A stretch of 64,000 nucleotides of DNA from Candidatus Dormiibacterota bacterium. Its GTDB lineage: Bacteria; Chloroflexota; Dormibacteria; CF-121. The position numbers and the translations under genes are program-made. Under the pieces are notes generated by a model that searched no databases, had not been told where the DNA came from, and was given only the letters and a program-made list of their open reading frames with translations. Below are positions 7,206-54,907 of this stretch, one piece after another. Each line of letters starts with the position of its first letter. Position 1 is the first letter of the stretch. Where the stretch lies: positions 1,082 through 65,081 of the forward strand of contig DAIPYJ010000007.1 in NCBI GenBank assembly GCA_036782775.1, read 5' to 3'.

Positions 7206-7314
7206 CCGAAGCACGATCTGACAGCCACCCTGGGCTATTCCTTGACAACCGCGCGTTCAAGATGCTTTGTTTGTAGGCAGGGTCAGAGCTGGGGTTCTTG
7301 CGGAGGGCTCAATC

Positions 7315-14180: not shown

Positions 14181-15224
14181 GTGCGTATCGGCGTCCTCAC
14201 CGGCGGCGGGGATGCCCCGGGCCTCAACGCCGCCATCCGCGCGGTGGCGCGGCGTGGCTTCCAGAAGGGCTTTCAGGTCAGCGGTATCAAGAACGGCTGG
14301 GCGGGCCTGCTGGGCGACGGCGATATGGATGAGTTCACGCCGGCATCGGTCCGTGGCATCCTGCCACTGGGCGGCACCATCCTCGGCACCTCGCGCACCA
14401 ATCCCATGAAGGAGAAGGGCGGCATCGACCAGGTGATGCGGCTGCTCAAGCGGCGCAGTATCGACGGCCTGGTCGCCATCGGTGGTGACGACACGCTCTC
14501 GGTCGCGGCCGCCATGAGCGACGCCGGCTTCCCGGTCGTCGGTGTCCCGAAGACGATCGACAACGACCTCTGCGTCACAGAGTTCTGCATCGGCTTCGAC
14601 ACCGCGGTCGGGATCGTCGTCGAGGCCCTCGACCGGCTCCATACCACCGCCTCGGCGCATCACCGCGTGATGGTGGTCGAGGTGATGGGCCGGGACACCG
14701 GCTGGGTCGGGATGGTCGGCGGCCTGGCGGGTGGCGCCGACATGATCATCATCCCGGAGTTTTCGGTTGAGCTCGATGCCGTCGTCGAGCATTTGAAGAA
14801 GCGCCGCTCCGAGGGCAAGGACTTCAGCATCATCGTCATCTGCGAAGGGGTCAAAATGCCTGCCCTCGAGCCGGCGATGGCGATGTCGGCGGCGGCGGAA
14901 AAGCGCGACGCCTTCGGGCACGTGCAGCTTGCCAAGCAAGGCATCGGTGATGCGCTCAGCACGCGGATCGAGGAAGCGACCGGCTTTGAAACCCGCATCA
15001 CCGTGCTGGGCCATCTGCAGCGTGGCGGCTCGCCGTCACCGGTCGACCGCATCTGGTCGACCAGGCTCGGCGTTGCGGCCACCGATCTGCTGGCCGAGGG
15101 TCGCGCCGGGGTGATCCCGATCCGCAAGAACGGGGACGTCGCCGTGGTGCCGCTGCGCGACGTGATTGCGCAGACGCGCCGGGTGCCGGGCGAGCTCTAC
15201 GACCTGCAGCAGGTCTTCGGCTAG
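14181..15224 (+). CDS. pfk: 6-phosphofructokinase (PFK-A family; GGDDT motif suggests a PPi-dependent type)
   Basis: RIGVLTGGGDAPGLNAAI..., IGGDDTLSVA, and PKTIDNDL. The start is GTG. Confidence 0.8.
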   Translation: MRIGVLTGGGDAPGLNAAIRAVARRGFQKGFQVSGIKNGWAGLLGDGDMDEFTPASVRGILPLGGTILGTSRTNPMKEKGGIDQVMRLLKRRSIDGLVAIGGDDTLSVAAAMSDAGFPVVGVPKTIDNDLCVTEFCIGFDTAVGIVVEALDRLHTTASAHHRVMVVEVMGRDTGWVGMVGGLAGGADMIIIPEFSVELDAVVEHLKKRRSEGKDFSIIVICEGVKMPALEPAMAMSAAAEKRDAFGHVQLAKQGIGDALSTRIEEATGFETRITVLGHLQRGGSPSPVDRIWSTRLGVAATDLLAEGRAGVIPIRKNGDVAVVPLRDVIAQTRRVPGELYDLQQVFG

Positions 15225-15230
15225 CGCATC

Positions 15231-15257
15231 TCCCTCTCCCCACTCGTGGGGAGAGGG
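15231..15257. terminator. bidirectional terminator or palindromic element between convergent pfk and the sensor gene
   Basis: CCCTCTCCCCA-ctcg-TGGGGAGAGGG forms a perfect 11-bp stem. Confidence 0.55.
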
Positions 15258-15276
15258 TCGGGGTGAGGAGTTTGGG

Positions 15277-27238: not shown

Positions 27239-28258
27239 CTAGCGGCAAGTCCAGGACTGCGTGAGCGCAGGCGCAGAGTAGAACGGGCTGATGAAAATCA
27301 ACTGGACGGTGCCCGACGAGTTGGGGTGCACATAGCTGTCGGTGATCACGTGCGCGTTCGTGTCGCCGGCCGCGACCACCAGCGAACCCGAGTGGACGGT
27401 GACCACGCTGTTGCCGCTACTGTTCGTGTCTTTGTAGATCCAGGTATATCTCACGGTGCCCCCCGGGCCGCCGGCCTGCATCCGGAAGGTGCCGGTGGTG
27501 TTAACGGTGGTCATGGTGCATTTGTCCGAGCCGTTCTGTGAGAGGCTCGCACTGTCCGACGCGCTGGCGATCGCGAACGGCCCTGAGGGTGTGGGTGTTG
27601 GAGTCGGTGTGGGTGTGGGTGTTGGTGTTGGGGTCGGAGTGGGTGTGGGCGTGGGCGTCGGCGTTGGTGTGGGCGTCGGCGTCGGCGTGGGGGTGGGCGT
27701 TGGAGTTGGCGTGGGCGTGGGCGTCGGCGTGGGCGTCGGCGCTGCGCTCGGCGTCGGAGAAGCGCCGGGCGTCGGCGAGGCGCTCGGGCTGGGCGATGGG
27801 GAGGCGCTCGGGCTGGCGGACGCGCTCGGCGACGGCGACGCACCGGCCGATGGCGAGGCGGTTGGGCTCGACGACGCCGATGGTCTCGGACTGCTGCTGC
27901 CGGAGGTCGAGGCTGCCGGCGTCGTGCTCGGCCGCAACGCGATCAGCGGACGCGAGGTCGTGTTAGGCCGCGCGGCGAAAAATCGCGGTGGCAGGTTGAA
28001 GGTCGGGACCAACAACCAGAAGGGAGCGTGGGGGTCGTCGGCAAAGTAGAGGCTCGCGTCCGGCTCAGCGGCGCTGCCGCTGGCGTCGATCCGGAAAGGA
28101 CCGACTTCCCAATCGGGTGGGATGGCGCGCACCAGGAAGAAGAGGACGATCAGGCCGAAGAAGAACAAGAGGAAGCCGAACTTCCGGCGCCGCTTGCGCT
28201 CGTCCGCCTGCTCTTCTTCCGTCTGCGGTTGGATGGCGCGCCTGAATGGGAGTCGCAT
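27239..28258 (-). CDS. membrane-anchored protein with long Ser/Pro/Thr linker and small C-terminal beta domain (hypothetical)
   Basis: N-terminal basic stretch plus one TM (FGFLLFFFGLIVLFFLV), about 110 aa of (SP)/(PT) repeats, and a Cys-containing C-terminal domain. Confidence 0.5.
   Translation of the reverse strand: MRLPFRRAIQPQTEEEQADERKRRRKFGFLLFFFGLIVLFFLVRAIPPDWEVGPFRIDASGSAAEPDASLYFADDPHAPFWLLVPTFNLPPRFFAARPNTTSRPLIALRPSTTPAASTSGSSSPRPSASSSPTASPSAGASPSPSASASPSASPSPSPSASPTPGASPTPSAAPTPTPTPTPTPTPTPTPTPTPTPTPTPTPTPTPTPTPTPTPTPTPTPTPTPSGPFAIASASDSASLSQNGSDKCTMTTVNTTGTFRMQAGGPGGTVRYTWIYKDTNSSGNSVVTVHSGSLVVAAGDTNAHVITDSYVHPNSSGTVQLIFISPFYSAPALTQSWTCR
27589..27740. repeat. hexanucleotide tandem repeat (GGNGTNGG)n encoding a (PT)n linker
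   Basis: The repeat ggtgtgggtgttgg... is visible directly. A shorter copy of the same repeat type lies at about 5211-5290 inside the phosphoesterase gene. Confidence 0.8.
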
Positions 28259-38311: not shown

Positions 38312-38377
38312 CGAAATTCATCCTCCTTCGATTTGACGCACGGGCGGAGCACTTGCGCTCCGCCCTTTTCTCGACGA

Positions 38378-42345: not shown

Positions 42346-43302
42346 ATGGCAAGCGTTGAGCGGCTCCGAACGGCGGGCGCTCGACCGTTCCCAGGGAGGC
42401 GGCTTGCCATCCGTCTCGCGCTTGCGATCATCCTCCTTGTGGTGCTGATTTATGCGGCGGTCTCGCTGGGCATGGCCTATCAGCTCACGCTGGGCAACCA
42501 CAAGCCGCTCGGCGCCGACGGCAGCATCGTCGAGACGCCGTTCGAGAACGTCAGCTTCCCAAGCCGAGTCGATGCCATCACCTTGCGTGGCTGGCTCTTC
42601 AGGGCGCCGTCGCTGACCGGGCGAAGCGCGGTCATCGTGCACGGCTTCCGGCAGAACCGGGTGAATGCCGACCTCGATGCCGTCGATCTGAGCAAAAGCC
42701 TGCTGGCGCATGGCTATGACGTCCTGCTCTTCGACCTGCGGTCCTGCGGGACCAGCAGTGGGGACCGGTTCACGCTCGGCACCCTCGAACCGCGGGACCT
42801 GCTTGGCGCCTATGACTTCTTGCTGAGACGGCACTACAGCCCCGGAAAGATGGCGATCATCGGCGACAGCGAGGGAGCCGCGACCGTGATCGGCGCCGCC
42901 AAGGACCTCGGCGCGGTGGGCGCGCTGGTGGCGGATAGCAGCTTTGCCGAGCTCAAGCCGATCATCGACATGCACCTGCCGCAGAACACCAGCCTTCCGC
43001 CGATCTTCTTTCCAGGCGGCGAGATTGCCAGCGAGCTGTTTGGCCTCGATCCGTTCCTGCGGCCGGTGGACGAGATTCGGGCGCTACCCTCGCGAGCCTT
43101 CCTCTTTTTCCATGGAAGCGCCGACGGCTACGTTCCGCTCTCCCATGCCAGAGAACTGAAAGATGCGTCGGCGAATCCAGAGTCAGAGCTGGTGATCGTC
43201 ACCGGAGCTGACCACGTGAAGAGCTACCGGACGAATCCGACTCTCTATCTTGCGAGGCTCTACCAATTCCTCGACCAGCAGATCGCCGAGCGCGGCGGCT
43301 GA
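42346..43302 (+). CDS. membrane-anchored alpha/beta hydrolase
   Basis: N-terminal TM. Nucleophile elbow GDSEG, plus HG (oxyanion) and a C-terminal His. Confidence 0.7.
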   Translation: MASVERLRTAGARPFPGRRLAIRLALAIILLVVLIYAAVSLGMAYQLTLGNHKPLGADGSIVETPFENVSFPSRVDAITLRGWLFRAPSLTGRSAVIVHGFRQNRVNADLDAVDLSKSLLAHGYDVLLFDLRSCGTSSGDRFTLGTLEPRDLLGAYDFLLRRHYSPGKMAIIGDSEGAATVIGAAKDLGAVGALVADSSFAELKPIIDMHLPQNTSLPPIFFPGGEIASELFGLDPFLRPVDEIRALPSRAFLFFHGSADGYVPLSHARELKDASANPESELVIVTGADHVKSYRTNPTLYLARLYQFLDQQIAERGG

Positions 43303-43307
43303 CAGGC

Positions 43308-43952
43308 TTAGTCTGCGAGGTTGGCCCAGGAGGGGGTCGCAACGGTAAGGAACTCGCCAGCGCCGGGAGCCATGACGAGCGCGACGAGCGCCGTCGAGAT
43401 CCGGTCTGCCCCGAGGACGAAATCCACGCAGCCGCTCGCGATCGCGCTGGCGGGCATCTGGTGACTGTCAGCCGTGGATGGGTCCTGGGCAAGGGTGCGG
43501 CCGCCGGCTCGCTTGACTGCGCGCACTCCCCGGGTGCCGTCCCGACCGGTGCCGCTCAAAATCACGGCGATGGTGGCCGAGCCGTGCTTCGCCGATGCAC
43601 TGCAGAGGAGTTCGTCGCCGTCATGGGCAGTGCCGTCCGTGTGGCACAAGAGGAGGCAATCGGAGCTATCGAGCCGAGCCGTCTCGCCGGGGGGGATGAC
43701 GGTCACCCCGGCCTGCGCTAACCGGCCGTTGCCGCCGGTTCGAACCGGCAGCCGGGTGCGGGAGGCGAGCAGCCGCGTGAGCCGATCCAGATCATCGGTG
43801 GCGCGCGCGTGGCGGACGACGAGCACCGGCAGCGGAAAATTGGCTGGGAGTCCTCCGAGCACGGCGGCCATCGGCTCCAGGCCGCCGAGCGAACTGACCA
43901 TCACCACCACGCCCGTTCCCGAAGTTCGTGGCTTATGTACGGCGGCTGACAT
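43308..43952 (-). CDS. stand-alone CheB-type protein-glutamate methylesterase catalytic domain
   Basis: VVMVSSLGG (Ser), LVVRHA (His) and ILSGTGRDG...TLAQDPSTADSHQMP (Asp) match the CheB_methylest triad blocks. There is no receiver domain. Confidence 0.65.
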   Translation of the reverse strand: MSAAVHKPRTSGTGVVVMVSSLGGLEPMAAVLGGLPANFPLPVLVVRHARATDDLDRLTRLLASRTRLPVRTGGNGRLAQAGVTVIPPGETARLDSSDCLLLCHTDGTAHDGDELLCSASAKHGSATIAVILSGTGRDGTRGVRAVKRAGGRTLAQDPSTADSHQMPASAIASGCVDFVLGADRISTALVALVMAPGAGEFLTVATPSWANLAD

Positions 43953-44001
43953 TGTTTGCTGAATCTTATCATCCTGCGTCAGCGACCGTACAGATGCGGG
44001 T

Positions 44002-44751
44002 ATGGTGATTTGCATGGTGCGTGCCGCCGCTCGCTCCGACGAAGCGACGGATCTCGAGCTTCGCGAAAACGCCATCTTGGCCGAATTGCCGGTGGGTGAG
44101 CTGGATGCACTGCGTCCCCGACTGCAGCTGATGGATGTCGAGCCCCGCAAGTCGGTATACGACCCGGGAAAACGCATTTCGCACGTCTACTTCCCAACCA
44201 GCGCCGTCTTTTCGCTGGTGGCGATGGCCGGGAGCGGGGCAAGCGTGGAGGTCGCCACCACCGGTCGGGAAGGGATGGTGGGCTTGCCGATCTTCCTGGG
44301 AGCAATGACCAGCCCGCACTCCGCCTTCTGTCAGGTTTCCGGACGCGCGGCTCGCTTGCCCGCGAACGATTTGCTCGCGGTTCTCGGCCGGAACCCGTCG
44401 CTGCACCAGGTCTTGAATCGATTCACGCAAGCAATGATGGTGCAGATCGCCCAGAACGTCCTCTGCAACAACACGCATACGACCGAGCAGCGTTTATGCC
44501 GCTGGTTGCTTACGACCGAGGATCGTGTCGCCAGGCCGACCTTCCAGATAACGCAGGAGTTCATGGCCCAGATGCTCGGTGTTCGACGTCCAACCGTTTC
44601 GGACACCGCCGGCCGCCTGCAGGACCGGGGCCTCATCCGCTACAGCCGCGGCGTCATGACCATCGTTGACCGCGCGAAGATGGAGAAGGCAACCTGTGAC
44701 TGCTATCGCATCGTTAAGGGGGAGTTCGACCAGATCATGCGGCGGAAGTAA
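44002..44751 (+). CDS. Crp/Fnr-family transcriptional regulator
   Basis: cNMP-binding-like beta-roll, then a C-terminal HTH (FQITQEFMAQMLGVRRPTVSDTAGRLQDRGLI). Confidence 0.75.
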   Translation: MVICMVRAAARSDEATDLELRENAILAELPVGELDALRPRLQLMDVEPRKSVYDPGKRISHVYFPTSAVFSLVAMAGSGASVEVATTGREGMVGLPIFLGAMTSPHSAFCQVSGRAARLPANDLLAVLGRNPSLHQVLNRFTQAMMVQIAQNVLCNNTHTTEQRLCRWLLTTEDRVARPTFQITQEFMAQMLGVRRPTVSDTAGRLQDRGLIRYSRGVMTIVDRAKMEKATCDCYRIVKGEFDQIMRRK

Positions 44752-44777
44752 GCGAATCCTCGGCTGACCCCTGGCTG

Positions 44778-44792
44778 TTGCGCCTGACGCAA
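44778..44792. promoter_or_regulatory. inverted repeat TTGCG-N5-CGCAA upstream of the DMGDH gene (candidate Crp/Fnr-family site)
   Basis: Perfect 5-bp arms. It is centred about 46 nt upstream of a putative TSS (TATGCT -10 at 44819-44824, RBS AGGAGGGG at 44845-44852). Confidence 0.3.
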
Positions 44793-44858
44793 TCCTCGAC
44801 GGCGTCATATTTCCTCGCTATGCTTTCCCTCTAACGCGTCCTTAGGAGGGGATCGTCT

Positions 44859-47375
44859 ATGGCCAGCCTGCCCTCGCAGGCGCGAGTCGTCGTCATCGGC
44901 GCCGGGATCGTCGGCAACAGCATGGCCTATCACCTGGCGCGCCTCGGCTGGAAGGACCTCGTGCTGATCGACAAGGGCCGCATGCCGAACCCGGGCGGAT
45001 CCACCGGCCATGCCTCGAACTTCATCTTCCTGACCGACCACTCAAAGGAGATGACGCTGTTCACGCTCGACAGCGTCAACCAGTACAAGGAGCTCGGGGT
45101 CTTTACCAGGAGCGGCGGCATCGAGGTCGCCCGCACCGCCGAGCGCGTGGACGAGCTGAAGCGCCGGATGGCGTCCAGCAAGGCCTGGGGGATCGACGCC
45201 TCGCTGGTGACGCCCGCCGAAGTCAAAGAATTGGTTCCCTACATCAACGAGGACATCATCCTTGGCGGCTTCTATACCGAAGGCATCGGCACCGTCGACT
45301 CCTTGCGCGGCGGCACCATCATGCGCGAGCGCGCCGAGCAGATGGGGGCGCTGACCGTGATGCCGCAGACCGAAGTCACCGGCATCACGGTGCAGAACGG
45401 TCGCGTGACAGGCGTGCAGACGGACAAGGGCGAAATTTCGGCCGAGTATGTCGTCATCTCCTGCGGCATCTGGAGTCCGCGGTTGGCGCGGATGGCGGGG
45501 GCATCGATCCCGCTCAGCCCGGCGGTTCATCAGATGATCAGCGTCGGCCCGGTGCCTCTCTTCGCCGATACCGTCGGCGAGATCAAATACCCCATCGTCC
45601 GCGACATGGACACCAACGGCTACGAGCGCCAGCATGGCAGCGACATGGAAGTCGGCTCCTATGACCACCGACCGATCCTCTGGGATCCGGACGACATCCC
45701 GTCGATCGAGCAGTCGAAGCTGTCGCCCACCGAACTGCCCTTCACCAAGGAAGACTTTGACGAATCGCTCGAGCACGCGCTCGAGCTGATGCCCGACATC
45801 CTGGGCGATCCGAATGTTGGCATCCGTCACTCGATCAACGGTCTCCTGTCGCTTACGCCTGACGGCTTTCCCCTGCTGGGCGAAACCGCGGAGGTCAAGG
45901 GCCTCTGGTCGGTAGCGGCGATCTGGATCAAGGAAGCGCCTGGGATCGCGCGCTGCGTCGCCGAATGGATGACGAGCGGCGTGTCCGAGATCGACCCATC
46001 AGGGTCCGATGTTGCGCGCTTTTACGAGCACCAGAAGACGAAGGTCCATGTCAACGGCCGCACCGCCGAAGGCTTCAACAAGACCTACGGCATCGTCCAT
46101 CCACGCGAGCAGTGGGAATCGAATCGTCGGGTTCGGCTCAGCCCCTTCTACGAACGGGAGAAAGCCCTCGGAGCGTTCTTCTTCGAGACCGCCGGCTGGG
46201 AACGGCCGCACTGGTACGAATCGAACAAGAAGCTCCTCGACGAGTACGGCGATCGTGTCATGCCCCGCCGTTACGAGTGGGACGCGCGCTGGTGGTCCCC
46301 GATCATCAACGCCGAGCATCTCGCGATGCGAGACCGGGTCGCGATGGTCGACCTGTCCGCCTTCGCCGTCTTCGACGTCGCCGGCACCTGCGCGCTGGAG
46401 ACGATGCAAAATCTGTGCGTCGTCCAGATGAATGTCCCGGTTGGACGGGTCGTCTATACGTCGCTGCTCAATCCCGCGGCCGGCATCAAGGCCGACCTGA
46501 CCGTGATGCGGCTTGGGATCAATCACTTCCGGGTTGTGACCGGCGGCGCCGACGGCCCGCGGGACAAGAAGTGGTTTCAGGACCACCTGCCGGACGATGG
46601 CGCCGTGCAGCTGACCGACCTGACCAACAGCTGGGCGACGATCGGCGTCTGGGGCCCGCGTGCGCGTGACGTGATCTCGTCGATTACCGACGCCGACGTC
46701 TCGAACGACGGGTTTCCTTTCGGCACCTGTCGCACCATCGACCTTGGCCCGGTGCGGGTGCTCGCCTCGCGTATCTCGTATGTCGGAGAGCTCGGCTGGG
46801 AGATCTACGTGCCCTTCGAACAGGGCGCCCGCGTGTGGGATTCGATCTGGGAGACCGGCCAGCCGCACGGGATCGTTCCCGCCGGCATCGGCGTCTATGG
46901 AACGACCGGGCGAATCGAAAAGTGCTATCGCGCCTACGGATTCGAGCTGGAGCAGGAATTCAACCTGGTCGAGACCGGTCTGGCTCGGCCGCTGGTGAAG
47001 CCGCAGGACTTCATCGGGAAAGATGCCTATCTCAAGCAGCGCGCCGAACCGGCAGCCGCGATTCTGTCTACGCTGACGGTCGACGACAACATCTCGCGCT
47101 CCGGATTCAAGCGCTACATGCAGGGACGGGAACCAGTCCTGGGCCGCGATGGCCAGCGGCTGGTCGACAGGCACGGCCGCGGCTCCTATGTGACGAGCGC
47201 GGGCTCGGGACCGTCGGTCGGAAAGACCATCCTCATGAGCTTCTTGCCCCCGGAGCAGGCGAAAGTCGGCAACAAACTCTGTGTCGAGTATTTCGGCGAC
47301 CAGTATCCGGTGACCGTTGCCGTCGCCGGCCCGACGCCCCTATTCGATCCCCAGAACACCCGCGTCCGAAGTTGA
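44859..47375 (+). CDS. dimethylglycine/sarcosine dehydrogenase-family enzyme (FAD DAO domain plus folate-binding GcvT domain)
   Basis: 838 aa. N-terminal VVVIGAGIVGNSMAYHLA, then a C-terminal aminomethyltransferase folate-binding domain. Confidence 0.8.
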   Translation: MASLPSQARVVVIGAGIVGNSMAYHLARLGWKDLVLIDKGRMPNPGGSTGHASNFIFLTDHSKEMTLFTLDSVNQYKELGVFTRSGGIEVARTAERVDELKRRMASSKAWGIDASLVTPAEVKELVPYINEDIILGGFYTEGIGTVDSLRGGTIMRERAEQMGALTVMPQTEVTGITVQNGRVTGVQTDKGEISAEYVVISCGIWSPRLARMAGASIPLSPAVHQMISVGPVPLFADTVGEIKYPIVRDMDTNGYERQHGSDMEVGSYDHRPILWDPDDIPSIEQSKLSPTELPFTKEDFDESLEHALELMPDILGDPNVGIRHSINGLLSLTPDGFPLLGETAEVKGLWSVAAIWIKEAPGIARCVAEWMTSGVSEIDPSGSDVARFYEHQKTKVHVNGRTAEGFNKTYGIVHPREQWESNRRVRLSPFYEREKALGAFFFETAGWERPHWYESNKKLLDEYGDRVMPRRYEWDARWWSPIINAEHLAMRDRVAMVDLSAFAVFDVAGTCALETMQNLCVVQMNVPVGRVVYTSLLNPAAGIKADLTVMRLGINHFRVVTGGADGPRDKKWFQDHLPDDGAVQLTDLTNSWATIGVWGPRARDVISSITDADVSNDGFPFGTCRTIDLGPVRVLASRISYVGELGWEIYVPFEQGARVWDSIWETGQPHGIVPAGIGVYGTTGRIEKCYRAYGFELEQEFNLVETGLARPLVKPQDFIGKDAYLKQRAEPAAAILSTLTVDDNISRSGFKRYMQGREPVLGRDGQRLVDRHGRGSYVTSAGSGPSVGKTILMSFLPPEQAKVGNKLCVEYFGDQYPVTVAVAGPTPLFDPQNTRVRS

Positions 47376-47388
47376 GCCAACTCACTTT

Positions 47389-47414
47389 TCCCTCCCCCCG
47401 CATGCGGGGGGAGG
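47389..47414. repeat. perfect 26-nt palindrome CCCTCCCCCCGCATGCGGGGGGAGGG between the DMGDH and etfB genes
   Basis: Visible directly in the sequence. It belongs to the same family as the element at 15231-15257. Confidence 0.8.
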
Positions 47415-47430
47415 GTCAGGGTGGGGGGCT

Positions 47431-48204
47431 ATGAATATCCTCGTCTGCGTCAAGCGGGTTCCCGCCACCGCCGGCCACATTGCCCTCACGGCAGATGCGC
47501 AGGACATCGACACGCGCTACCTGGGCTTCACGATCTCCCCGCATGAGGAATGCGCGGTTGAAGAAGCGGTTCGGCTGATCGAGAAACACGGCGGCAGCAG
47601 CACGGTGTTGACGCTGGGCCCCGAAGTTGCGATCGATCAGCTACGCGACGCGATGGCGTTGGGCATCGACCGAGCGATCCTGCTGCAAACCGATGGGCGC
47701 GAATGGGATCCGATCGCAACCGCCGACGCGATCATGGAGTCGATTCGGACGGATCAGGCCGCCGGCATGAGCTACGACTTGATCATGTTCGGCAATGAGT
47801 CGGCGGACAGCGCCGGCTACCAGATCGGCGTGCGCGTTGCCGAGGCCCTTGATCTTCCCTGTGTGACGGGCATCAAGGCGCTTCAGGTCAACGACTCAAC
47901 CCTCGAGGTGCGCAGGCAGACGGAATCGGGCTGGGAGCGAGCTGGACTTTCGTTGCCAGCTGTCCTCACGGTAAAGGAGGGGCTGAATCTGCCGCGTTAT
48001 CCCTCGTTGCCGGGACGCCTGAAGGCGAAAAAGAAAGACATCGAACGCCGGACTCCGCAGTGGAAGGACGGTGGCCTGGAAAAAGTGCGGCTCAAGCTGC
48101 CTGTTCAGGCCAGCCACACAGTCGAAATGCTCGGCAAGACAGGCGAGGTTGGGGTTGAACTGATTGAACTGTTCCAGCGGCTCCAGCTGTTGGAGCGGCG
48201 ATGA
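47431..48204 (+). CDS. etfB: electron transfer flavoprotein beta subunit
   Basis: MNILVCVKRVP... is the EtfB N-terminus. Its stop overlaps the etfA start. Confidence 0.85.
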   Translation: MNILVCVKRVPATAGHIALTADAQDIDTRYLGFTISPHEECAVEEAVRLIEKHGGSSTVLTLGPEVAIDQLRDAMALGIDRAILLQTDGREWDPIATADAIMESIRTDQAAGMSYDLIMFGNESADSAGYQIGVRVAEALDLPCVTGIKALQVNDSTLEVRRQTESGWERAGLSLPAVLTVKEGLNLPRYPSLPGRLKAKKKDIERRTPQWKDGGLEKVRLKLPVQASHTVEMLGKTGEVGVELIELFQRLQLLERR

Positions 48205-49184
48205 TCCTCGCCTTCCTGGAGCACGTCAGCGGTGCGCCAACCGCCCTCTCTTTAGAGGTGCTGACGATGGGCCGACGACTCGCAGAGAGTATGGAGACCG
48301 GGCTCGAGGCGGTCGTGATCGGCGCCGGCGGGAGGTCGGCGGCCGGACTCCTCAGCTCCTACGGAGTGAGCTCCCTGCATGTGGCGGAAAATGCTGAGCT
48401 CGCTGACTACGCTCCCACCGCCTGGGCTCAGGCACTCGTGGAATTAGTTGAGGAAACCGCACCCCGGATCGTCATCGGGACGGCCAGCGACCGGGGCAGC
48501 GAGGTCATGGCCCACCTCGGAGCGCGCCTTCAGCTGGCGCTCGCGGCCAATTGCACCGAGATCACGCCCGGAGATCCAATGCTGGTAACCCGGCAGCGCT
48601 GGGGTGGGAGTCTGCTGGAAGAGGCGCGATTGACCGGCGAAGTCAAGCTCGTGACGCTCGCCCCTCACGCGCTGGTGGCCGAGGCATCGGCCAAACGAAC
48701 GGAGGTGGTTGCGCGTCCGTGGACCGCGGTCATCCAGGAGAAAGACTTGCGGGTGCGGCTCGTGCCAGAGGTCGAGATCGATACCGGAAAGGTTTCCCTG
48801 GCGCAGGCGCGCGTCGTGGTCGGCGGTGGCCGCGGCGTTGGCAGTGCGGAAGGATTTGCCGCGCTCGAAGAGCTCGCCGGCTATCTCGGCGGCGCGGTCG
48901 GGTGCTCGCGTGCCGTCACGAGCCTCGGATGGCGACCGCATAGCGACCAGGTGGGACAGACCGGCACACGCATCGCGCCGGATCTCTACATCGCGGCCGG
49001 CATCAGCGGCGCCATTCAGCATATGGTGGGCTGCCGCGCGGCCAAGCACATCCTCGCCATCAATACTGACGCGAACGCGCCGATCGTGGCACAGGCGGAC
49101 TACGCCGTGATCGGCGACGTGCACAAGGTGCTCGCCTCGGTCAACGAGGAGATCCGCAAGCTGAAAGCGACTCCAGTCGGCTAG
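48201..49184 (+). CDS. etfA: electron transfer flavoprotein alpha subunit
   Basis: EtfA FAD-binding C-terminal domain (...PDLYIAAGISGAIQH...). Confidence 0.85.
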   Translation: MILAFLEHVSGAPTALSLEVLTMGRRLAESMETGLEAVVIGAGGRSAAGLLSSYGVSSLHVAENAELADYAPTAWAQALVELVEETAPRIVIGTASDRGSEVMAHLGARLQLALAANCTEITPGDPMLVTRQRWGGSLLEEARLTGEVKLVTLAPHALVAEASAKRTEVVARPWTAVIQEKDLRVRLVPEVEIDTGKVSLAQARVVVGGGRGVGSAEGFAALEELAGYLGGAVGCSRAVTSLGWRPHSDQVGQTGTRIAPDLYIAAGISGAIQHMVGCRAAKHILAINTDANAPIVAQADYAVIGDVHKVLASVNEEIRKLKATPVG

Positions 49185-49193
49185 GAGCAGCTG

Positions 49194-49706
49194 ATGACCG
49201 CGGTCCGCGTCGAGCAGGTGACGCGCGAATGGGCGGAGGCTCTGGCGGAAGGCGACGCCGTCTTCACTGAGCGGTTTGGGATCCCGGTCGAACCCGGATG
49301 GTTCGGCTTCCGAGAGGCGATCGACTTCATCCTCAAGACCGGCCGGGGCGAAGTGCCGGCGGCCTGGGGCCCGCATCTCTACTTCGATGCGGATGGCGCG
49401 CTGGTCGGCAACGGTGGTTGGAAAGGGCCGCCGGTAAATGGAAGCGCCGAGATCGGCTACGCGGTCGCGCCCAGCCGTCAGGGCCGCGGGATCGCAACCG
49501 CGGCGGTCCGAACCTTCATCGACCAGGCGAAGAGTGCGGGCCTTCAGGTCGTGGTCGCCCACACCTTGCCGCGCGAATCGCCATCGACAAGCGTGCTCAA
49601 GCATTGCGGCTTCAGACAGGTCGGAGAGTCGATCGACCCGGACGAGGGCGAGGTCTGGCGCTGGGAGCTGCCGCTCAGGCCCGTCCAGCCATCAACTGTT
49701 CGATAG
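49194..49706 (+). CDS. GNAT-family N-acetyltransferase
   Basis: Acetyl-CoA-binding motif RQGRGIATAAV. Confidence 0.6.
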   Translation: MTAVRVEQVTREWAEALAEGDAVFTERFGIPVEPGWFGFREAIDFILKTGRGEVPAAWGPHLYFDADGALVGNGGWKGPPVNGSAEIGYAVAPSRQGRGIATAAVRTFIDQAKSAGLQVVVAHTLPRESPSTSVLKHCGFRQVGESIDPDEGEVWRWELPLRPVQPSTVR

Positions 49707-50202
49707 CACTGGGCAGCGTCGTTTCGAAGTCGATGAGCTTCGCCCACTCAGGGATGATGCTGATACGCGCCATCTGTTTGTAGAGTGCGCGCACCTGGGT
49801 CTCGAATTCGCTCCATTGCTCGCGTGGCACGTACCTGAACGACGCCTCCAGATATTCAGGTGGCACTCCATCAACCACTTCGATTCGCGCCGTGCCTCGG
49901 ACCAGCAAGATTCGCGGCGGCTGGGTTTCGGTATCAACGGTGAACGCAACTCGCGGATTGGAGGTCAGCGCCTTGACTTTAGGCGCGTTCGCGGATGTGC
50001 AGACGATGAACTGCTCGCCTTTCAAGATGTAGCCGATGGGCACGACTCGCGGGTAACCGTCGGGTCCCATGTAGCCGAGGCGGCATACGAAATGCGATGC
50101 CATCAGCTCTTGTGCAATCGGTGTTTCGAGGACTTTTGCTACGGCCTTTCTGTCCACGAGATCTACGCTAGCAATCCCACGGCTCCGACTGCCGTCCACC
50201 AC
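49675..50202 (-). CDS. pyridoxamine 5'-phosphate oxidase-like (FMN/F420-binding split-barrel) family protein
   Basis: PPOX-class fold pattern (FVCRLGYMGPDGYPRVVPIGY...). Confidence 0.55.
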   Translation of the reverse strand: MVDGSRSRGIASVDLVDRKAVAKVLETPIAQELMASHFVCRLGYMGPDGYPRVVPIGYILKGEQFIVCTSANAPKVKALTSNPRVAFTVDTETQPPRILLVRGTARIEVVDGVPPEYLEASFRYVPREQWSEFETQVRALYKQMARISIIPEWAKLIDFETTLPSAIEQLMAGRA

Positions 50203-50216
50203 GCTAGCCTGCTGAT

Positions 50217-50978
50217 ATGACCGTCAAGCTCGATCGTCACGGCAGCATCCTCCTGGTTACCATCGACCGTCCCGATCGACGTAACGCCGTTGATCGAGCC
50301 ACCGCGAACCAGCTGTCGAAGGCGTTTCGGGCGTTTGACGCCGACCATTCCTTGCGGATTGCCGTCCTTACCGGAGCGGGAGGCCATTTCTGTGCGGGCT
50401 TCGACCTGAAGGCGCTCGCCGGAGGTGGCGGTCCAGTTGTGGGCGAGGGCGATGGACCGATGGGACCAACCTACCTGCAACTTTCGAAGCCGGTGATCGC
50501 GGCGATCGAAGGTTATTGCGTCGCCGGCGGAATGGAGCTTGCGCTGTGGTGCGATCTACGTGTCGCGGCCGAGGACGCGACCTTTGGGATCTTCAATCGC
50601 CGCTTTGACGTCCCACTCGTCGATGGCGGCACCGTCCGTCTGGCTCGGATTGCAGGCCAGGGTCTGGCGATGGATCTCATCCTGACGGGCCGCACTCTCC
50701 GCGCTCAAGAAGCGTTCGAGCACGGCCTCGTCAATCGGTTGGCGAAGCCTGGCGATGCGCTGAGTCAGGCGCTCGAACTTGCGACGCGCATCTCGAAGTT
50801 CCCGCAGTCAGGCCTCCGCAATGACCGGCAATCGCTGCTCGAACAATGGGGCTTACCTCTCGATCAGGCGCTCCGCAATGAGTTGCGCTGGGGCCGTCGC
50901 ACCATGGACAGTGGAGAGGCAATCGAAGGCGCGAAGCGCTTCTCGCAGGGAGAAGGCCGGGGCGGCGCCGACACATAG
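50217..50978 (+). CDS. enoyl-CoA hydratase/isomerase (crotonase) family protein
   Basis: ILLVTIDRPDRRNAVD...AGFDL... is the crotonase fold. Confidence 0.75.
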   Translation: MTVKLDRHGSILLVTIDRPDRRNAVDRATANQLSKAFRAFDADHSLRIAVLTGAGGHFCAGFDLKALAGGGGPVVGEGDGPMGPTYLQLSKPVIAAIEGYCVAGGMELALWCDLRVAAEDATFGIFNRRFDVPLVDGGTVRLARIAGQGLAMDLILTGRTLRAQEAFEHGLVNRLAKPGDALSQALELATRISKFPQSGLRNDRQSLLEQWGLPLDQALRNELRWGRRTMDSGEAIEGAKRFSQGEGRGGADT

Positions 50979-53023: not shown

Positions 53024-53984
53024 CCGCCTCGCCGATTTGCTGCATGACGGTCAGTTCGTCGTCACGGCCGAACTCACCTCCAGCGACAGTGCCGATCCCG
53101 AGGTGGTTGCCCGCAACGGCGAGATGCTGCGCGGCGTCGTCGACGCCATCAACTGCACCGACAACACTGGCGCCCATGTCCACCTCTCGGCGATCGCCGC
53201 CGCTCACCTGCTGGTGGAGCGCGGCATCGAACCGATCATGCAGGTGACAGTCCGCGATCGGAATCGCCTCGCGCTGCAGGCAGACCTGTTGGGTGCGGCC
53301 GCCCTCGGTGTTCGCAACATCGTCGTGATGAGCGGGGACGATGTGACCGCCGGCGACCATCCCGATGCCCGGCGGATCTACGACATCGACTCAATGCAGT
53401 TGATCGAGGTCGCAGCCGGCATGCGCGACCGCGCCGTCTATCTGAGCGGTCGCAAGCTTGGCCAGCCGCCGGCATTCTTCATCGGCGCCGTCGAGAACCC
53501 ATTTGCGCCGCCGCTCGAATTCCGTCCGTTGCGGTTGCAGAAAAAGGTCCGGGCTGGAGCGCAGTTCATCCAGACGCAGCTGGTCTTTGACGTGCCCATC
53601 TTCACCCGCTTCATGCGGATGGTCGACGACCTCGGCCTGCTCGACCAGGTCTTCATCATCCCGTCGATTGGGATCCCGCGTTCCGCTCGTGGGGCGCGCT
53701 TCATGAAGGAGAAGGTCCCGGGGTTACATGTGCCTGATGCCGTAATTGACCGGATGGAGAGGACGCCGCCAGCGCGGCAGGCGGAGGAAGGGATCGCGAT
53801 TGCCGTCGAGCTGGTCAGCGAGATTCGGCAGATCCGCGGCATCGCGGGGGTGCATCTGATCGGCATCAAATGGGAGGAAGGCGTCGCTCGGGTCGCCGAG
53901 GCCGCCGGCCTCCTGCCACGTCCAACCCATGAACCGCTTCCTTTTCCCTCCCCCGCTCGCGGCGGCGGACAGGGAAGGGGCTAA
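53010..53984 (+). CDS. metF: 5,10-methylenetetrahydrofolate reductase
   Basis: Shows the MTHFR TIM-barrel pattern (...NCTDNTGAHVH..., FIQTQLVFD). The 3' end runs through a CCCTCCCC/GGGAAGGGG-like low-complexity element. Confidence 0.75.
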   Translation: MRATSRLADLLHDGQFVVTAELTSSDSADPEVVARNGEMLRGVVDAINCTDNTGAHVHLSAIAAAHLLVERGIEPIMQVTVRDRNRLALQADLLGAAALGVRNIVVMSGDDVTAGDHPDARRIYDIDSMQLIEVAAGMRDRAVYLSGRKLGQPPAFFIGAVENPFAPPLEFRPLRLQKKVRAGAQFIQTQLVFDVPIFTRFMRMVDDLGLLDQVFIIPSIGIPRSARGARFMKEKVPGLHVPDAVIDRMERTPPARQAEEGIAIAVELVSEIRQIRGIAGVHLIGIKWEEGVARVAEAAGLLPRPTHEPLPFPSPARGGGQGRG

Positions 53985-54907
53985 TGGAAACGACGCTCCG
54001 CTCCCGCTCGAAGGAGGTTGTGATCTCGATCGATCGGCCCTTCGTGATGATCGGTGAGCGAATCAACCCAACCGGCCGCAAGGTGCTCGCCGCCGAAATG
54101 AAGCTGGGCCGGATGGATCGGGTCAAGGCTGATGCGATTGCGCAGGTCGAAGCCGGCGCGCAGATGCTGGATGTCAACGCGGGTGTGCCCGGCATCGACG
54201 AGCCGGCGCTGCTGGTCGCGGCGATTCGCGCCGTGGGTGAGGTGACCGATGTGCCGCTCTGCATCGACTCATCCGTGATCGAGGCGCTGGAGGCTGCCCT
54301 CGCCGTCTACGAGGGCAAGGCGCTGGTGAACTCGGTGACGGCCGAAGGCGAGCGAATGGACCGCATCCTGCCCCTGGTGAAGAAATACGGCGCGGCGGTC
54401 ATCGGCATGAGCAACGACGAGACAGGCATCACCATGGTTCCGCAGGAGCGGGTCGAGATCGCGCGTCGCATCATCGAGCGCGCCAAGTATTACGGCATTC
54501 CCCAGGAAGACGTCGTCATCGATCCGATCGCGATGACCGTCGCCGCGGATCCGCAGGCCGGTCTGATCACGCTGGAGACCATGCGCCTCATCAAGGAACA
54601 GCTCGGGAACAACATGACCTGCGGTGCCTCGAACGTCTCGTTCGGGCTGCCGGAGCGGCATCTGCTGAACGCCGCCTTCTTCCCGGTGGCGATGCACGCC
54701 GGCTTGAGCTGCGCCATCACCAATCCGTTAGTGCCCGAGGTGCGAAAGGCGGTGCTGGCTTCCGACCTCCTGCTGGGCCACGACGAGTACGCCATGCGGT
54801 GGATTTCCGATTTCCGCACCGAGCAGAAGAAAAGAGCCTCCCTCCCTGACCCTCCTCCCGCTACGCAGGGAGAGGGAATTGGAAGGCTGGCGGTCAAGCC
54901 GGGATGA
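53984..54907 (+). CDS. pterin-binding methyltransferase (methylcorrinoid:tetrahydrofolate methyltransferase, MtgA/AcsE-like)
   Basis: DHPS-like pterin-binding barrel (INPTGRK..., NSVTAEGERM, CGASNVSFGLPER). Confidence 0.7.
   Translation: METTLRSRSKEVVISIDRPFVMIGERINPTGRKVLAAEMKLGRMDRVKADAIAQVEAGAQMLDVNAGVPGIDEPALLVAAIRAVGEVTDVPLCIDSSVIEALEAALAVYEGKALVNSVTAEGERMDRILPLVKKYGAAVIGMSNDETGITMVPQERVEIARRIIERAKYYGIPQEDVVIDPIAMTVAADPQAGLITLETMRLIKEQLGNNMTCGASNVSFGLPERHLLNAAFFPVAMHAGLSCAITNPLVPEVRKAVLASDLLLGHDEYAMRWISDFRTEQKKRASLPDPPPATQGEGIGRLAVKPG

What the first reader, a model, noticed from the sequence alone, without database searches (positions are those of the whole stretch)
44778..49184. DMGDH, a perfect 26-nt palindrome, then etfB-etfA, preceded by a Crp/Fnr regulator and a TTGCG-N5-CGCAA site
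Seen in sequence: an 838-aa dimethylglycine/sarcosine dehydrogenase-family gene. It is followed by CCCTCCCCCCGCATGCGGGGGGAGGG at 47389-47414, and 17 nt later by etfB-etfA. Upstream are a Crp/Fnr-family regulator gene and a perfect inverted repeat centred about 46 nt upstream of a TATGCT box. Inference: DMGDH passes electrons to the ETF encoded immediately downstream and feeds formaldehyde into THF through its folate-binding domain. That would supply the second demethylation step after the MttB reaction. The palindrome could act as a partial terminator or mRNA-stabilising hairpin that sets the DMGDH:ETF expression ratio.
Basis: partly seen in the sequence, partly recalled or inferred. Interest (0 to 1): 0.55.

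Follow-up and report, generated by a model that had tools for sequence, protein, structure and literature searches.

The report
BoxC-type repeat inside DMGDH–ETF operon
The 26-base palindrome between a dimethylglycine-dehydrogenase gene and its electron-transfer-flavoprotein genes is one copy of a known, scattered "BoxC / intrastrand-triplex" repeat that inserted recently into a normally tight gene junction, and the nearby "Crp site" is most likely a chance palindrome.

Summary
The genes are as described: a Crp-like gene, an 838-aa DMGDH/DMGO-family gene, then etfB and etfA. They sit in a corrinoid-dependent betaine-demethylation cluster of a soil Chloroflexota (Limnocylindria-like) MAG. The dmgdh-etfB-etfA order holds in about 77 of 80 related loci.

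It is not a bespoke operon signal. It is the hairpin of a ~56-nt BoxC/PIT/TM(ECO)-type repeat: C-rich arm, G-rich arm, then a mirror G-rich third arm. Two more strong copies lie in the window (15219-15275 +, 54833-54889 -). A covariance model built only from the Chloroflexota copies finds two E. coli BoxC elements.

In 70 of 86 orthologous junctions, dmgdh and etfB overlap or lie at most 20 nt apart. The element is present only in the window and two near relatives; a fourth member of that clade has the empty TTGA site. Against one of those relatives the stem is identical despite 40% fourfold-site divergence, so constraint or a later arrival is possible.

The TTGCG-N5-CGCAA repeat is exact but expected by chance (P≈0.35). 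It never recurs. A Crp-less relative carries the homologous stretch with the palindrome broken. The Crp/CheB pair is a window-specific insertion.

The parts
44002..44751 (+). Crp/Fnr-family regulator gene. The true start is probably about 15 codons further in. It forms a window-specific inserted pair with the CheB-like gene on the opposite strand.
   Evidence: Pfam HTH_Crp_2 and cNMP_binding. Nearest non-identical homologues are only 63-65% identical and about 235 aa long; the named ones are Actinomycetota. Absent upstream of dmgdh in all related loci.
44778..44792 (.). Perfect 5+5 inverted repeat TTGCG-N5-CGCAA, most likely a chance palindrome.
   Evidence: Exact. Chance probability 0.35 for the spacer. 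No recurrence. The homologous stretch in Crp-less L165 reads TTGCGCCTGATGCGA, with the palindrome broken.
44819..44824 (+). TATGCT, a likely -10 element of the dmgdh promoter, within the conserved stretch TTTCCTCGCTATGCT.
   Evidence: Invariant in 14 relatives while the sequence upstream varies. The sigma-70 scan called no full promoter because the -35 is poor. Its function is inferred.
44844..44851 (+). AGGAGGGG ribosome-binding site of dmgdh.
   Evidence: Read from the sequence. Conserved in relatives.
44859..47375 (+). 838-aa dimethylglycine dehydrogenase/oxidase-family flavoenzyme with a folate-binding domain.
   Evidence: Pfam DAO, FAO_M, GCV_T, GCV_T_C. PDB 1PJ5 DMGO E 1.9e-170; mammalian DMGDH about 1e-94. 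Thousands of homologues, the closest in Chloroflexota MAGs.
47376..47433 (+). BoxC/PIT/TM-type repeat filling the dmgdh-etfB spacer. Parts: leader 47376-47389; C-rich arm 47390-47399; loop GCATGC 47400-47405 (its outer bases extend the stem); G-rich arm 47406-47415; TCA 47416-47418; mirror third arm GGGTGGGGGG 47419-47428; CT; then the new etfB ATG 47431-47433.
   Evidence: Covariance model R1 scores 78.1 bits, E 3e-23. 10 of 10 Watson-Crick pairs and 10 of 10 purine-motif triads. Full-element RNA fold -41.2 kcal/mol, z -6.8. Empty site in L165, L166, L167 and L083.
47431..48204 (+). etfB (electron transfer flavoprotein beta subunit).
   Evidence: Pfam ETF. Follows dmgdh in about 77 of 80 loci.
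48201..49184 (+). etfA (electron transfer flavoprotein alpha subunit). Its start overlaps the etfB stop by 4 nt.
   Evidence: Pfam ETF and ETF_alpha. Conserved synteny.
15219..15275 (+). Second copy of the same repeat, filling the spacer between the convergent phosphofructokinase and GGDEF genes.
   Evidence: R1 70.0 bits, E 1.4e-20. Sequence CCCTCTCCCCACTCGTGGGGAGAGGGTCGGGGTGAGGA. Flanking genes identified.
54833..54889 (-). Third copy, in opposite orientation, at the junction of the pterin-binding methyltransferase and RACo genes. It has been absorbed into the methyltransferase reading frame, adding 19 codons.
   Evidence: R1 63.1 bits, E 2.5e-18. Relatives end ...QKKAVAAS* with a GTGA/ATGA overlap; the window reads ...QKKRASLPDPPPATQGEGIGRLAVKPG*.

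Best explanation
WHAT IT IS. dmgdh-etfB-etfA is a conserved Limnocylindria/Chloroflexota operon inside a corrinoid-dependent methylamine (probably betaine) demethylation cluster. The 26-nt palindrome is the Watson-Crick hairpin of a ~56-nt BoxC/PIT/TM(ECO)-type repeat. The repeat consists of a pyrimidine-rich leader, a C-rich arm, a loop, a G-rich arm, a 2-3-nt linker and a mirror-symmetric G-rich third arm. This is the class II purine-motif 'intrastrand triplex' architecture described in E. coli.

HOW IT GOT THERE. The element inserted recently into what is ancestrally an overlapping stop/start junction (TTGA) or a spacer of at most 15 nt. The insertion duplicated at least the TGA. dmgdh therefore kept its stop codon, and etfB gained a new ATG preceded by the G-rich third arm.

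WHAT IT PROBABLY DOES (inferred, not shown).
- On the mRNA it replaces direct translational coupling with a very stable structure. An 11-12-bp GC hairpin begins 14 nt after the stop codon. It is nested in a weaker helix between the leader and the third arm.
- That outer helix could mask the G-rich Shine-Dalgarno-like stretch until a ribosome terminating on dmgdh melts the leader.
- The hairpin could shield the dmgdh segment from 3' exonucleases.
- Any effect on the DMGDH:ETF ratio is a lineage-specific by-product or secondary co-option. It is not the ancestral design of the operon.

THE CRP SITE. TTGCG-N5-CGCAA is a chance palindrome in promoter-upstream DNA that predates the arrival of the Crp/CheB gene pair. 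Its left half and spacer are shared with L165. The conserved promoter element is TATGCT.
For: IDENTITY AS A DISPERSED REPEAT.
- Three strong copies in 64 kb: 78, 70 and 63 bits, E 3e-23 to 2.5e-18.
- Further copies in related MAGs: L082, L012 (four), L011 and L015, within 1.38 Mb.
- No copies in 250 kb of unrelated soil loci.
- The published TM(ECO) consensus is CCCTCNCCC-N3-6-GGGNGAGGG-N3-GGGNGAGGG. The listed E. coli copies, such as CCCTCTCCCTGTGGGAGAGGGTCGGGGTGAGGGC, match copy W1 almost base for base (PMC4666352).
- The model built only from Chloroflexota copies hits both MG1655 BoxC elements between alx and sstT, at 34 bits and E about 4e-10. The T-rich leader aligns as well.
- The third arm obeys the triplex mirror rule: 10 of 10 triads in W2 and 8-10 of 8-10 in the other copies. 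It tracks the C/T state at position 6 of the C-rich arm in 8 of the 9 copies checked; L082 is the exception.
- BoxC is reported as a 56-bp repeat (PMC2267715). The insert here is 55-59 nt.

INSERTION.
- Of 86 orthologous junctions, 70 are at most 20 nt long and 11 overlap by 4 nt.
- L165, in the same clade, has AAGTTGAACATCC. The window has AAGT[TGA]GCCAAC...GGGCTA[TGA]ATATCC.
- L166, L167 and L083 are empty too.

CRP SITE.
Against: - Window and L082 differ at 40% of fourfold-degenerate sites in dmgdh. All 24 stem bases of the element are nevertheless identical (P about 4e-6 at that rate; about 0.002 at the element's own non-stem rate of 23%). This argues either for purifying selection on the hairpin, meaning some function, or for a more recent arrival or homogenisation than the host divergence. 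A purely neutral passenger is therefore not a full explanation.
- Unrelated strong hairpins occupy the same junction in L016, L018, L062 and L069. This could mean the site favours hairpins.
- The literal TM(ECO) pattern is not met. Loop 1 is 8 nt if the stems are cut to 9 nt, and the W2 third arm has G where the consensus has A.
- The TGA duplication rests on a single insertion event, shared by the window and L082.
- No transcript or protein data exist for this organism.
Confidence: 0.8

Rival explanations
1. The hairpin is a selected intercistronic signal, acting as a partial terminator, processing site or stabiliser, and it sets the DMGDH:ETF expression ratio in this operon.
For: - Very stable hairpin: -25.5 kcal/mol alone, -41.2 kcal/mol with the outer helix.
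- It starts 14 nt after the stop codon.
- The stem is 24 of 24 identical to L082 despite 40% fourfold-site divergence.
- Other lineages independently carry strong hairpins at the same junction.
- From my own knowledge, E. coli REP hairpins stabilise upstream mRNA segments. When within about 15 nt of a stop codon they can stall terminating ribosomes (Liang, Rudd and Deutscher 2015). I could not retrieve that paper here.
Against: - Absent from 83 of 86 orthologous junctions, including L165 in the same clade.
- The same element lies between unrelated convergent genes, and in the opposite orientation at another junction. The RNA-level sequence is therefore not consistent between copies.
- No T-tract, and the terminator scan did not call it.
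- E. coli PIT elements showed no promoter or terminator activity, as summarised in PMC4666352.
Confidence: 0.25
2. The Crp-like protein binds TTGCG-N5-CGCAA and controls the dmgdh-etfBA promoter.
For: - The gene is adjacent and on the same strand.
- The perfect repeat lies 3-4 nt upstream of a weak -35-like TCGACG. It is centred about 46 nt before a notional transcription start.
- That exact motif is expected only 0.05 times per 64 kb.
Against: - Any 5+5 inverted repeat is expected in such a spacer with P = 0.35.
- No second copy in the window; the only 1-mismatch match is an unrelated site at 7298.
- No copy in the flanks of 80 Crp homologues, where the recurrent palindrome is instead ATGTCG-N6-CGACAT.
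- The matches in L003 and L004 lie in non-conserved coding sequence.
- None of 87 related loci has a Crp gene upstream, yet all close relatives keep the TATGCT promoter.
- L165 carries the homologous block with a broken right half-site and no Crp.
- The N5 spacing and the half-site fit neither the FNR box (TTGAT-N4-ATCAA) nor the CRP box (TGTGA-N6-TCACA). The recognition helix reads RRPTVSD, not E--SR or RE--R. This helix reading is my own inspection of the translation.
Confidence: 0.06
3. The G-rich arm plus the third arm act as a G-quadruplex or triplex switch that gates etfB translation or local replication and transcription.
For: - GGGGGGAGGGTCAGGGTGGGGGG is one of only three canonical G4 motifs in the window. 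Another of the three belongs to copy W3.
- It ends 2 nt before the etfB ATG.
- The third arm follows the triad rule in most copies.
- TM(ECO) DNA forms a stable triplex in vitro (PMC4666352).
Against: - The competing 11-12-bp GC hairpin is very stable.
- Purine-motif triplexes do not form in RNA. In vivo DMS footprinting gave no evidence of stable triplex in E. coli (PMC4666352).
- Copies occur in both orientations relative to transcription.
Confidence: 0.1

Closest known systems
BoxC / PIT (potential intrastrand triplex) / TM(ECO) repeats of E. coli and other Proteobacteria (Bachellier et al.; Hoyne and Maher; Holder et al. 2015, PMC4666352)
   Same: - Same three-arm architecture and nearly the same sequence (CCCTCNCCC...GGGNGAGGG...GGGNGAGGG).
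- Same linker type (TCG/TCA) and a T-rich leader.
- Total length about 56 nt, multi-copy and dispersed.
- Presence or absence varies between close relatives.
- A model built from the Chloroflexota copies detects the E. coli elements.
   Different: - The host phylum is Chloroflexota. Holder et al. reported TM(ECO) in 262 proteobacterial genomes.
- Stems are 10-12 bp rather than 9.
- In W2, position 6 is C/G/G rather than T/A/A in all three arms.
- Copies here sit in operon stop/start junctions and even inside reading frames (W3; L011). E. coli copies were reported as always intergenic.
REP/BIME and REPIN elements mobilised by RAYT transposases
   Same: Short, GC-rich, palindromic, dispersed and often just downstream of stop codons. 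They are able to influence mRNA stability.
   Different: - No GTAG or CGTC head motif.
- A third mirror arm is present.
- No RAYT gene was identified; this was not searched systematically.
Intrinsic (Rho-independent) terminators
   Same: A GC-rich stem-loop just after a stop codon.
   Different: No downstream U-tract, and not called by the scan. It lies between two co-oriented genes of a conserved operon.
Dimethylglycine oxidase (Arthrobacter DMGO, 1PJ5) and mitochondrial DMGDH with ETF as acceptor
   Same: Same four-domain architecture, full-length alignment and folate-binding domain.
   Different: - Closer in sequence to the bacterial oxidase than to the mammalian dehydrogenase.
- Use of ETF is inferred only from the conserved etfBA neighbours.
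- Substrate is untested, and relatives carry 33-41% identical paralogues in the same cluster.
FNR and CRP operator boxes
   Same: A palindromic TTG...CAA outline next to a Crp/Fnr-family gene.
   Different: 15-bp site with N5 spacing and CG-rich half-sites. There is no recurrence and no conservation.

Membership tests
BoxC / PIT / TM(ECO) intrastrand-triplex repeat | Three consecutive arms: pyrimidine arm, complementary purine arm, and a third arm mirroring the purine arm (G*G:C and A/T*A:T triads). Stems 6-15 nt, loops 1-6 nt, at most 1 mismatch (the ITxF definition). | tested here: met
   W2 has 10-nt stems, loops of 6 and 3 nt, 10 of 10 Watson-Crick pairs and 10 of 10 triads. W1 scores 10/10 and 9/10. 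L082, L081, L011 and L012 score 8-10.
BoxC / PIT / TM(ECO) intrastrand-triplex repeat | Literal TM(ECO) pattern CCCTCNCCC-N3-6-GGGNGAGGG-N3-GGGNGAGGG. | tested here: not met
   With the stems cut to 9 nt, loop 1 is 8 nt in both W1 and W2. The W2 third arm is GGGTGGGGG, with G where the consensus has A, matched by the same C/G state in the other two arms. The copies are close variants rather than exact pattern matches.
BoxC / PIT / TM(ECO) intrastrand-triplex repeat | Sequence and structure similarity to bona fide E. coli elements. | tested here: met
   Model R1, built from 4 Chloroflexota copies, hits MG1655 copies #12 and #13 at 34.4 and 34.1 bits, E about 4e-10 in 4 kb.
BoxC / PIT / TM(ECO) intrastrand-triplex repeat | Multi-copy and dispersed, with copy number variable among relatives. 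| tested here: met
   3 strong copies and 1 weak copy in 64 kb. 4 copies in the 15-kb L012 locus and none in most other loci. 0 in 250 kb of control loci.
BoxC / PIT / TM(ECO) intrastrand-triplex repeat | Forms an intrastrand triplex as single-stranded DNA in vitro. | not testable with these tools
   Needs CD, NMR or UV melting of the 47390-47428 oligonucleotide.
Intrinsic terminator | GC-rich stem-loop followed by a run of T. | tested here: not met
   The stem is followed by TCAGGGTGGGGGGCTATG. The scan of 43000-50500 did not report it.
REP/REPIN (RAYT-associated) | Conserved GTAG or CGTC head tetranucleotide and an associated RAYT gene. | tested here: not met
   No GTAG or CGTC head in any copy. 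RAYT presence was not searched genome-wide.
Crp/Fnr operator | The palindrome recurs at regulated promoters or next to orthologous regulators, and is conserved where the regulator is present. | tested here: not met
   A single exact copy in the window. 0 copies in the flanks of 80 homologues. Broken in the homologous DNA of L165. At chance level.
Crp/Fnr operator | Physical binding by the adjacent Crp-like protein. | not testable with these tools
   Needs EMSA or DAP-seq.
DMGDH/DMGO family flavoenzyme | DAO FAD domain, FAO_M, GCV_T folate-binding domain and GCV_T_C, aligned over the full length to characterised enzymes. | tested here: met
   Pfam. 1PJ5 aligned over residues 6-837, E 1.9e-170; 5L46 and 4PAB about 1e-94.
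DMGDH/DMGO family flavoenzyme | Dimethylglycine as substrate and ETF as electron acceptor. | not testable with these tools
   Only conserved etfBA synteny and the cluster context bear on this.

The most novel reading that the evidence does not exclude
BoxC/PIT-type three-arm repeats are a single, truly mobile family shared between Proteobacteria and Chloroflexota. They insert at stop/start junctions with a short (TGA or longer) target duplication. After insertion they are kept by selection. Here, the perfectly conserved hairpin, together with a leader:third-arm helix that masks the new etfB ribosome-binding site, forms a working intercistronic coupling and stability module. That would give these long-unexplained repeats a defined function and a visible insertion footprint.
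Probability: 0.2. Interest if true: 0.6.

Novelty: new member of a known kind. Interest (0 to 1): 0.35.

Why it matters
For the operon itself the result is deflating. The palindrome is not a designed DMGDH:ETF ratio device, and the 'Crp site' is probably noise. The regulators more likely to matter are the conserved neighbouring GntR/FCD and IclR genes and the conserved TATGCT promoter.

For the repeat family it adds three things. No function has been assigned to BoxC/PIT/TM elements, and no association with mobile elements was found in E. coli.
- A near-canonical version exists in Chloroflexota, outside the Proteobacteria in which TM(ECO) was catalogued.
- There is a clean filled-versus-empty site pair at an overlapping stop/start codon, with TGA duplicated.
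- The stem is unchanged across 40% synonymous divergence.

Together these make mobility and selection on these repeats testable.

Tried and rejected
- RFAM. No family reached its gathering score in the whole window. A permissive scan of 44700-47500 gave only a chance snoRNA hit. No riboswitch or known RNA explains either feature.
- PROMOTER AND TERMINATOR SCAN. No sigma-70 consensus promoter was called. The only terminator-like site lies inside etfA.
- RECURRENCE OF THE INVERTED REPEAT. The two exact matches in L003 and L004 looked promising because they lie upstream of the Fe-ADH gene. They fall in the C-terminal coding sequence of a DMGDH paralogue and are not conserved in L005-L007. Rejected.
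- MOTIF SEARCH NEAR 80 CRP HOMOLOGUES. A de novo palindrome search gave ATGTCG-N6-CGACAT in only 5 loci. The window has no good copy of it near dmgdh.
- ALIGNMENT OF ALL NINE REPEAT COPIES. The MAFFT alignment was poor for the short copies. I built the model from the four copies that aligned well.
- POSSIBLE FOURTH COPY, 53933-53986. It scores only 21 bits, and the junction differs from relatives by about 7 codons. Left as uncertain.
- TARGET DUPLICATION AT COPY W3. It could not be resolved because of flank divergence.
- LIANG ET AL. 2015. I tried to retrieve this paper on REP elements near stop codons. It is not in the held text, so it is cited from memory only.
- CLADE TOPOLOGY. The neighbour-joining tree of the four closest dmgdh genes is star-like (85-87% pairwise identity). 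One gain cannot be separated from a gain followed by a loss.

Full report
1. WHAT IS THERE

Pfam confirms the gene content.
- Crp-like regulator, 44002-44751 (+).
- An 838-aa DAO + FAO_M + GCV_T + GCV_T_C protein, 44859-47375 (+).
- etfB, 47431-48204, and etfA, 48201-49184.
- Downstream: a GNAT gene, an enoyl-CoA hydratase, an IclR regulator, a B12-binding corrinoid protein, DUF5981/MTHFR, a pterin-binding methyltransferase and RACo.
- Upstream on the minus strand: a non-Pyl MttB homologue, an Fe-ADH, an amino-acid permease, a metallophosphoesterase-like gene and a GntR/FCD regulator.

The etfB ATG follows after 15 nt. The inverted repeat TTGCGCCTGACGCAA is exact at 44778-44792, and TATGCT lies at 44819-44824. 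The repeat centre is therefore about 34 nt, not 46 nt, upstream of that box.

2. SOURCE AND CONSERVATION OF THE OPERON

The DMGDH protein has an identical database entry on a 75-kb NCBI contig. A cluster scored at 100% identity (bit score 1946 against 1949) carries the name 'MAG TPA: FAD-dependent oxidoreductase [Candidatus Dormibacteraeota bacterium]'. The nearest relatives are Chloroflexota / Limnocylindrales MAGs.

In 80 genome loci, dmgdh is followed by etfB and etfA in about 77. Close relatives (84-88% identity) also share the GntR gene upstream and the downstream IclR-corrinoid-MTHFR-methyltransferase-RACo block.

The best solved homologue is Arthrobacter dimethylglycine oxidase 1PJ5 (E 1.9e-170, full length). 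Mammalian DMGDH follows at about 1e-94. The corrinoid protein's best NCBIfam hit is the glycine-betaine-specific MtgC, below its curated cut-off.

In that reading a DMGDH-type enzyme hands electrons to the co-encoded ETF and one-carbon units to folate, downstream of an MttB-type demethylation. It is not demonstrated. Substrate and acceptor are untested, and relatives carry 33-41% identical paralogues in the same cluster.

3. THE PALINDROME IS PART OF A LARGER, REPEATED ELEMENT

A hairpin scan of the window turned up a second sequence of the same kind at 15232-15257. Both are followed by TC(A/G)GGGTG(A/G)GG.

A G-quadruplex-motif scan found only three such motifs in 64 kb. One is the finding. 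Another, at 54840-54859 (-), proved to be a third copy.

Alignment of the copies defines a ~56-nt unit:
- a 13-14-nt pyrimidine-rich leader;
- a C-rich arm, a loop and a G-rich arm;
- a TC(A/G) linker;
- a second G-rich arm.

A covariance model built from four copies gave these results.
- Window: 78, 70 and 63 bits, plus one weak candidate at 53933-53986.
- 1.38 Mb of related loci: copies in L082, L012 (four), L011 and L015.
- 250 kb of unrelated soil loci: none.

4. IDENTIFICATION WITH A KNOWN FAMILY

A full-text search for the arm sequences led to Holder et al. 2015 (PMC4666352). That paper describes the E. coli BoxC / PIT / TM(ECO) motif as follows.
- The consensus is 5'-CCCTCNCCC-N3-6-GGGNGAGGG-N3-GGGNGAGGG, a class II purine-motif intrastrand triplex.
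- It was found 3610 times in 262 proteobacterial genomes, and it is always intergenic in MG1655.
- No function has been assigned. According to the work they cite, it has no promoter or terminator activity.
- It is associated with raised local sequence variability between strains.

Their Table 1 entries, for example CCCTCTCCCTGTGGGAGAGGGTCGGGGTGAGGGC, are almost the same as copy W1 here. BoxC is listed elsewhere as a 56-bp repeat with 32 copies (PMC2267715). The insert here is 55-59 nt.

I tested membership directly in two ways.
- The model built only from Chloroflexota copies detects both MG1655 BoxC elements between alx and sstT, at 34 bits and E about 4e-10. The T-rich leader aligns as well.
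- The triplex rule holds. In W2 all 10 Watson-Crick pairs and all 10 triads fit, and the other copies fit in 8-10 of 8-10 positions.
- In 8 of the 9 copies, the third arm has G where the C-rich arm has C at position 6, and A where it has T. L082 is the exception.

The literal TM(ECO) regular expression is not met. The stems here are 10-12 bp, so loop 1 counts as 8 nt when the stems are cut to 9. I therefore file these as close variants of the family.

5. IT IS A RECENT INSERTION INTO A NORMALLY COUPLED JUNCTION

Across 86 orthologous dmgdh-etfB junctions:
- 70 are at most 20 nt long;
- 11 overlap by 4 nt;
- 12 are longer than 40 nt.

Among the closest relatives (85-87% nucleotide identity in dmgdh):
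- L082 has the same element at the same place;
- L081 has a shorter family member with a different stop codon and leader;
- L165 has the empty site AAGTTGAACATCC, in which the TGA stop overlaps a TTG start.
L166, L167 and L083 (81-83% identity) are also empty.

The filled site reads AAGT[TGA]GCCAAC...GGGCTA[TGA]ATATCC. At least TGA is therefore duplicated. dmgdh keeps its stop codon, and etfB acquires an ATG (GTG in L082).

Copy W3 tells a similar story. Relatives end the methyltransferase gene with ...QKKAVAAS* overlapping the RACo start. The window has 57 extra in-frame bases, which are the element in reverse orientation, extending the protein by 19 residues.

6. DOES IT DO ANYTHING?

As RNA, the core hairpin folds at -25.5 kcal/mol. 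The full element folds at -41.2 kcal/mol because the leader pairs, largely through G-U pairs, with the third arm. There is no T-tract, and the terminator scan did not call it.

Copies occur in both orientations relative to transcription. This speaks against a function that depends on the RNA sequence of the G-rich tail.

One result argues against simple neutrality. Window and L082 differ at 40% of fourfold-degenerate sites in dmgdh and at 23% of non-stem positions in the element, yet at none of the 24 stem positions. Three explanations remain open:
- the stem is under constraint;
- the element arrived, or was homogenised, later than the host split;
- imperfect copies are lost quickly.

Unrelated strong hairpins occupy the same junction in L016, L018, L062 and L069.

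My working model is inferred and untested. The insertion replaced stop/start overlap coupling with structure-mediated coupling: a ribosome terminating 14 nt before the hairpin melts the leader:third-arm helix and frees the G-rich Shine-Dalgarno-like stretch just before the new ATG. The hairpin may also protect the dmgdh segment from 3' exonucleases, by analogy with REP elements.

7. THE CRP-LIKE GENE AND THE INVERTED REPEAT

No related locus has a Crp-family gene upstream of dmgdh. Relatives have a TMEM164-like gene, an alpha/beta-hydrolase or GntR there instead. The window has the hydrolase (42346-43302), then a CheB-like gene (-) and the Crp-like gene (+). That pair is therefore a window-specific insertion.

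The Crp-like protein's nearest non-identical homologues are only 63-65% identical, and those with organism names are Actinomycetota.

The evidence on the repeat itself is as follows.
- Statistically it is unremarkable: P = 0.35 for any perfect 5+5 repeat in a shuffled spacer, and 1.17 such repeats per 107 nt across the window.
- It does not recur in the window.
- It is not found in the flanks of 80 Crp homologues.
- The two matches in L003 and L004 lie in non-conserved coding sequence.
- Most tellingly, Crp-less L165 carries the homologous stretch GTTGCGCCTGATGCGATTCTCGACGG. The left half and spacer therefore predate the Crp gene, and the right half is not conserved.

What is conserved is TATGCT, invariant in 14 relatives inside TTTCCTCGCTATGCT, together with the AGGAGG ribosome-binding site.

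8. VERDICT

- The metabolic inference is plausible.
- The palindrome belongs to a known family of dispersed repeats and is not an operon-specific regulator, although a secondary effect in this sub-lineage remains possible.
- The Crp-site reading is not supported.

Novelty: a new member of a known kind, namely a BoxC-type repeat in Chloroflexota with a clear filled/empty site pair.

Noticed in passing
window 15219-15275 (+): A second copy of the BoxC-type repeat fills the whole 52-nt spacer between the convergent phosphofructokinase gene (14181-15224 +) and an HD-GAF-GGDEF gene (15277-17709 -).
   Followed up: yes
window 54833-54889 (-): A third copy, in reverse orientation, inserted at the methyltransferase/RACo stop-start junction. 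It is read through in frame and adds 19 residues (RASLPDPPPATQGEGIGRL...) to the pterin-binding methyltransferase relative to all close relatives.
   Followed up: yes
window 53933-53986 (+): A weak match (21 bits, E 1e-4) to the repeat model at the MTHFR/methyltransferase TAATG junction, with a leader resembling those of W3 and E. coli. The MTHFR C-terminus is about 7 codons longer than in relatives. It may be a decayed copy.
   Followed up: partly
L011 1426-1466 (-): A BoxC-type element sits in frame inside the coding sequence of a DMGDH paralogue. It lies in the variable loop before the conserved G-YVTSA motif and encodes PSPSPASGGGQGGG.
   Followed up: partly
window 43303-44757: The CheB-methylesterase-like gene (-) and the Crp-like gene (+) form a divergent pair. 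The pair is absent from all related loci and lies between the hydrolase gene and the dmgdh promoter. The longest ORFs overlap by 176 nt, so both true starts are probably further in.
   Followed up: partly
window 38312-38377 (minus strand): A GC hairpin, GGGCGGAGCGCAAGTGCTCCGCCC, lies in the 66-nt spacer between the permease and Fe-ADH genes. L011 has a different but equally paired hairpin (GAGGGCGGAGGCGCGAGCTTCCGCCCTC) at the same place.
   Followed up: no
L026, L027, L039, L044, L050, L054: 40-55 nt upstream of dmgdh: More distant loci have a divergent IclR gene upstream. They share a conserved TTGCAA-N3-4-(T/C)GCAA stretch that looks like a direct repeat of TGCAAC, preceded by GTGTCGCAGATGTGACAAC. 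It is a candidate IclR operator.
   Followed up: no
L016, L018, L062, L069: dmgdh-etfB spacers: Unrelated strong hairpins occupy the same junction in other lineages (z -6.8, -5.9, -4.8 and -3.6). Those in L016 and L018 are AT-rich palindromes.
   Followed up: partly
Holder et al. reported no association with phages in E. coli.
   Followed up: no
L085-L164: upstream of Crp homologues: A recurrent palindrome, ATGTCG-N6-CGACAT, occurs in 5 of 80 loci. CCAAAG-N3-CTTTGG occurs downstream in 6 loci. These may be family-specific sites.
   Followed up: no
window 27580-27700: A GT-rich imperfect tandem repeat (GGTGTGGGTGTT...). On the opposite strand it would encode a Pro/Thr-rich linker. It contains one of the three G4-type motifs in the window.
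   Followed up: no
L012 1784-1833 and 1888-1938: Two repeat copies lie 104 nt apart and share both leader (CCGCTCTTTCTCT) and downstream flank (TCCAGCCGAAAAGCGCTCGCCTCG). A ~100-nt unit containing the element has therefore been duplicated in tandem.
   Followed up: no
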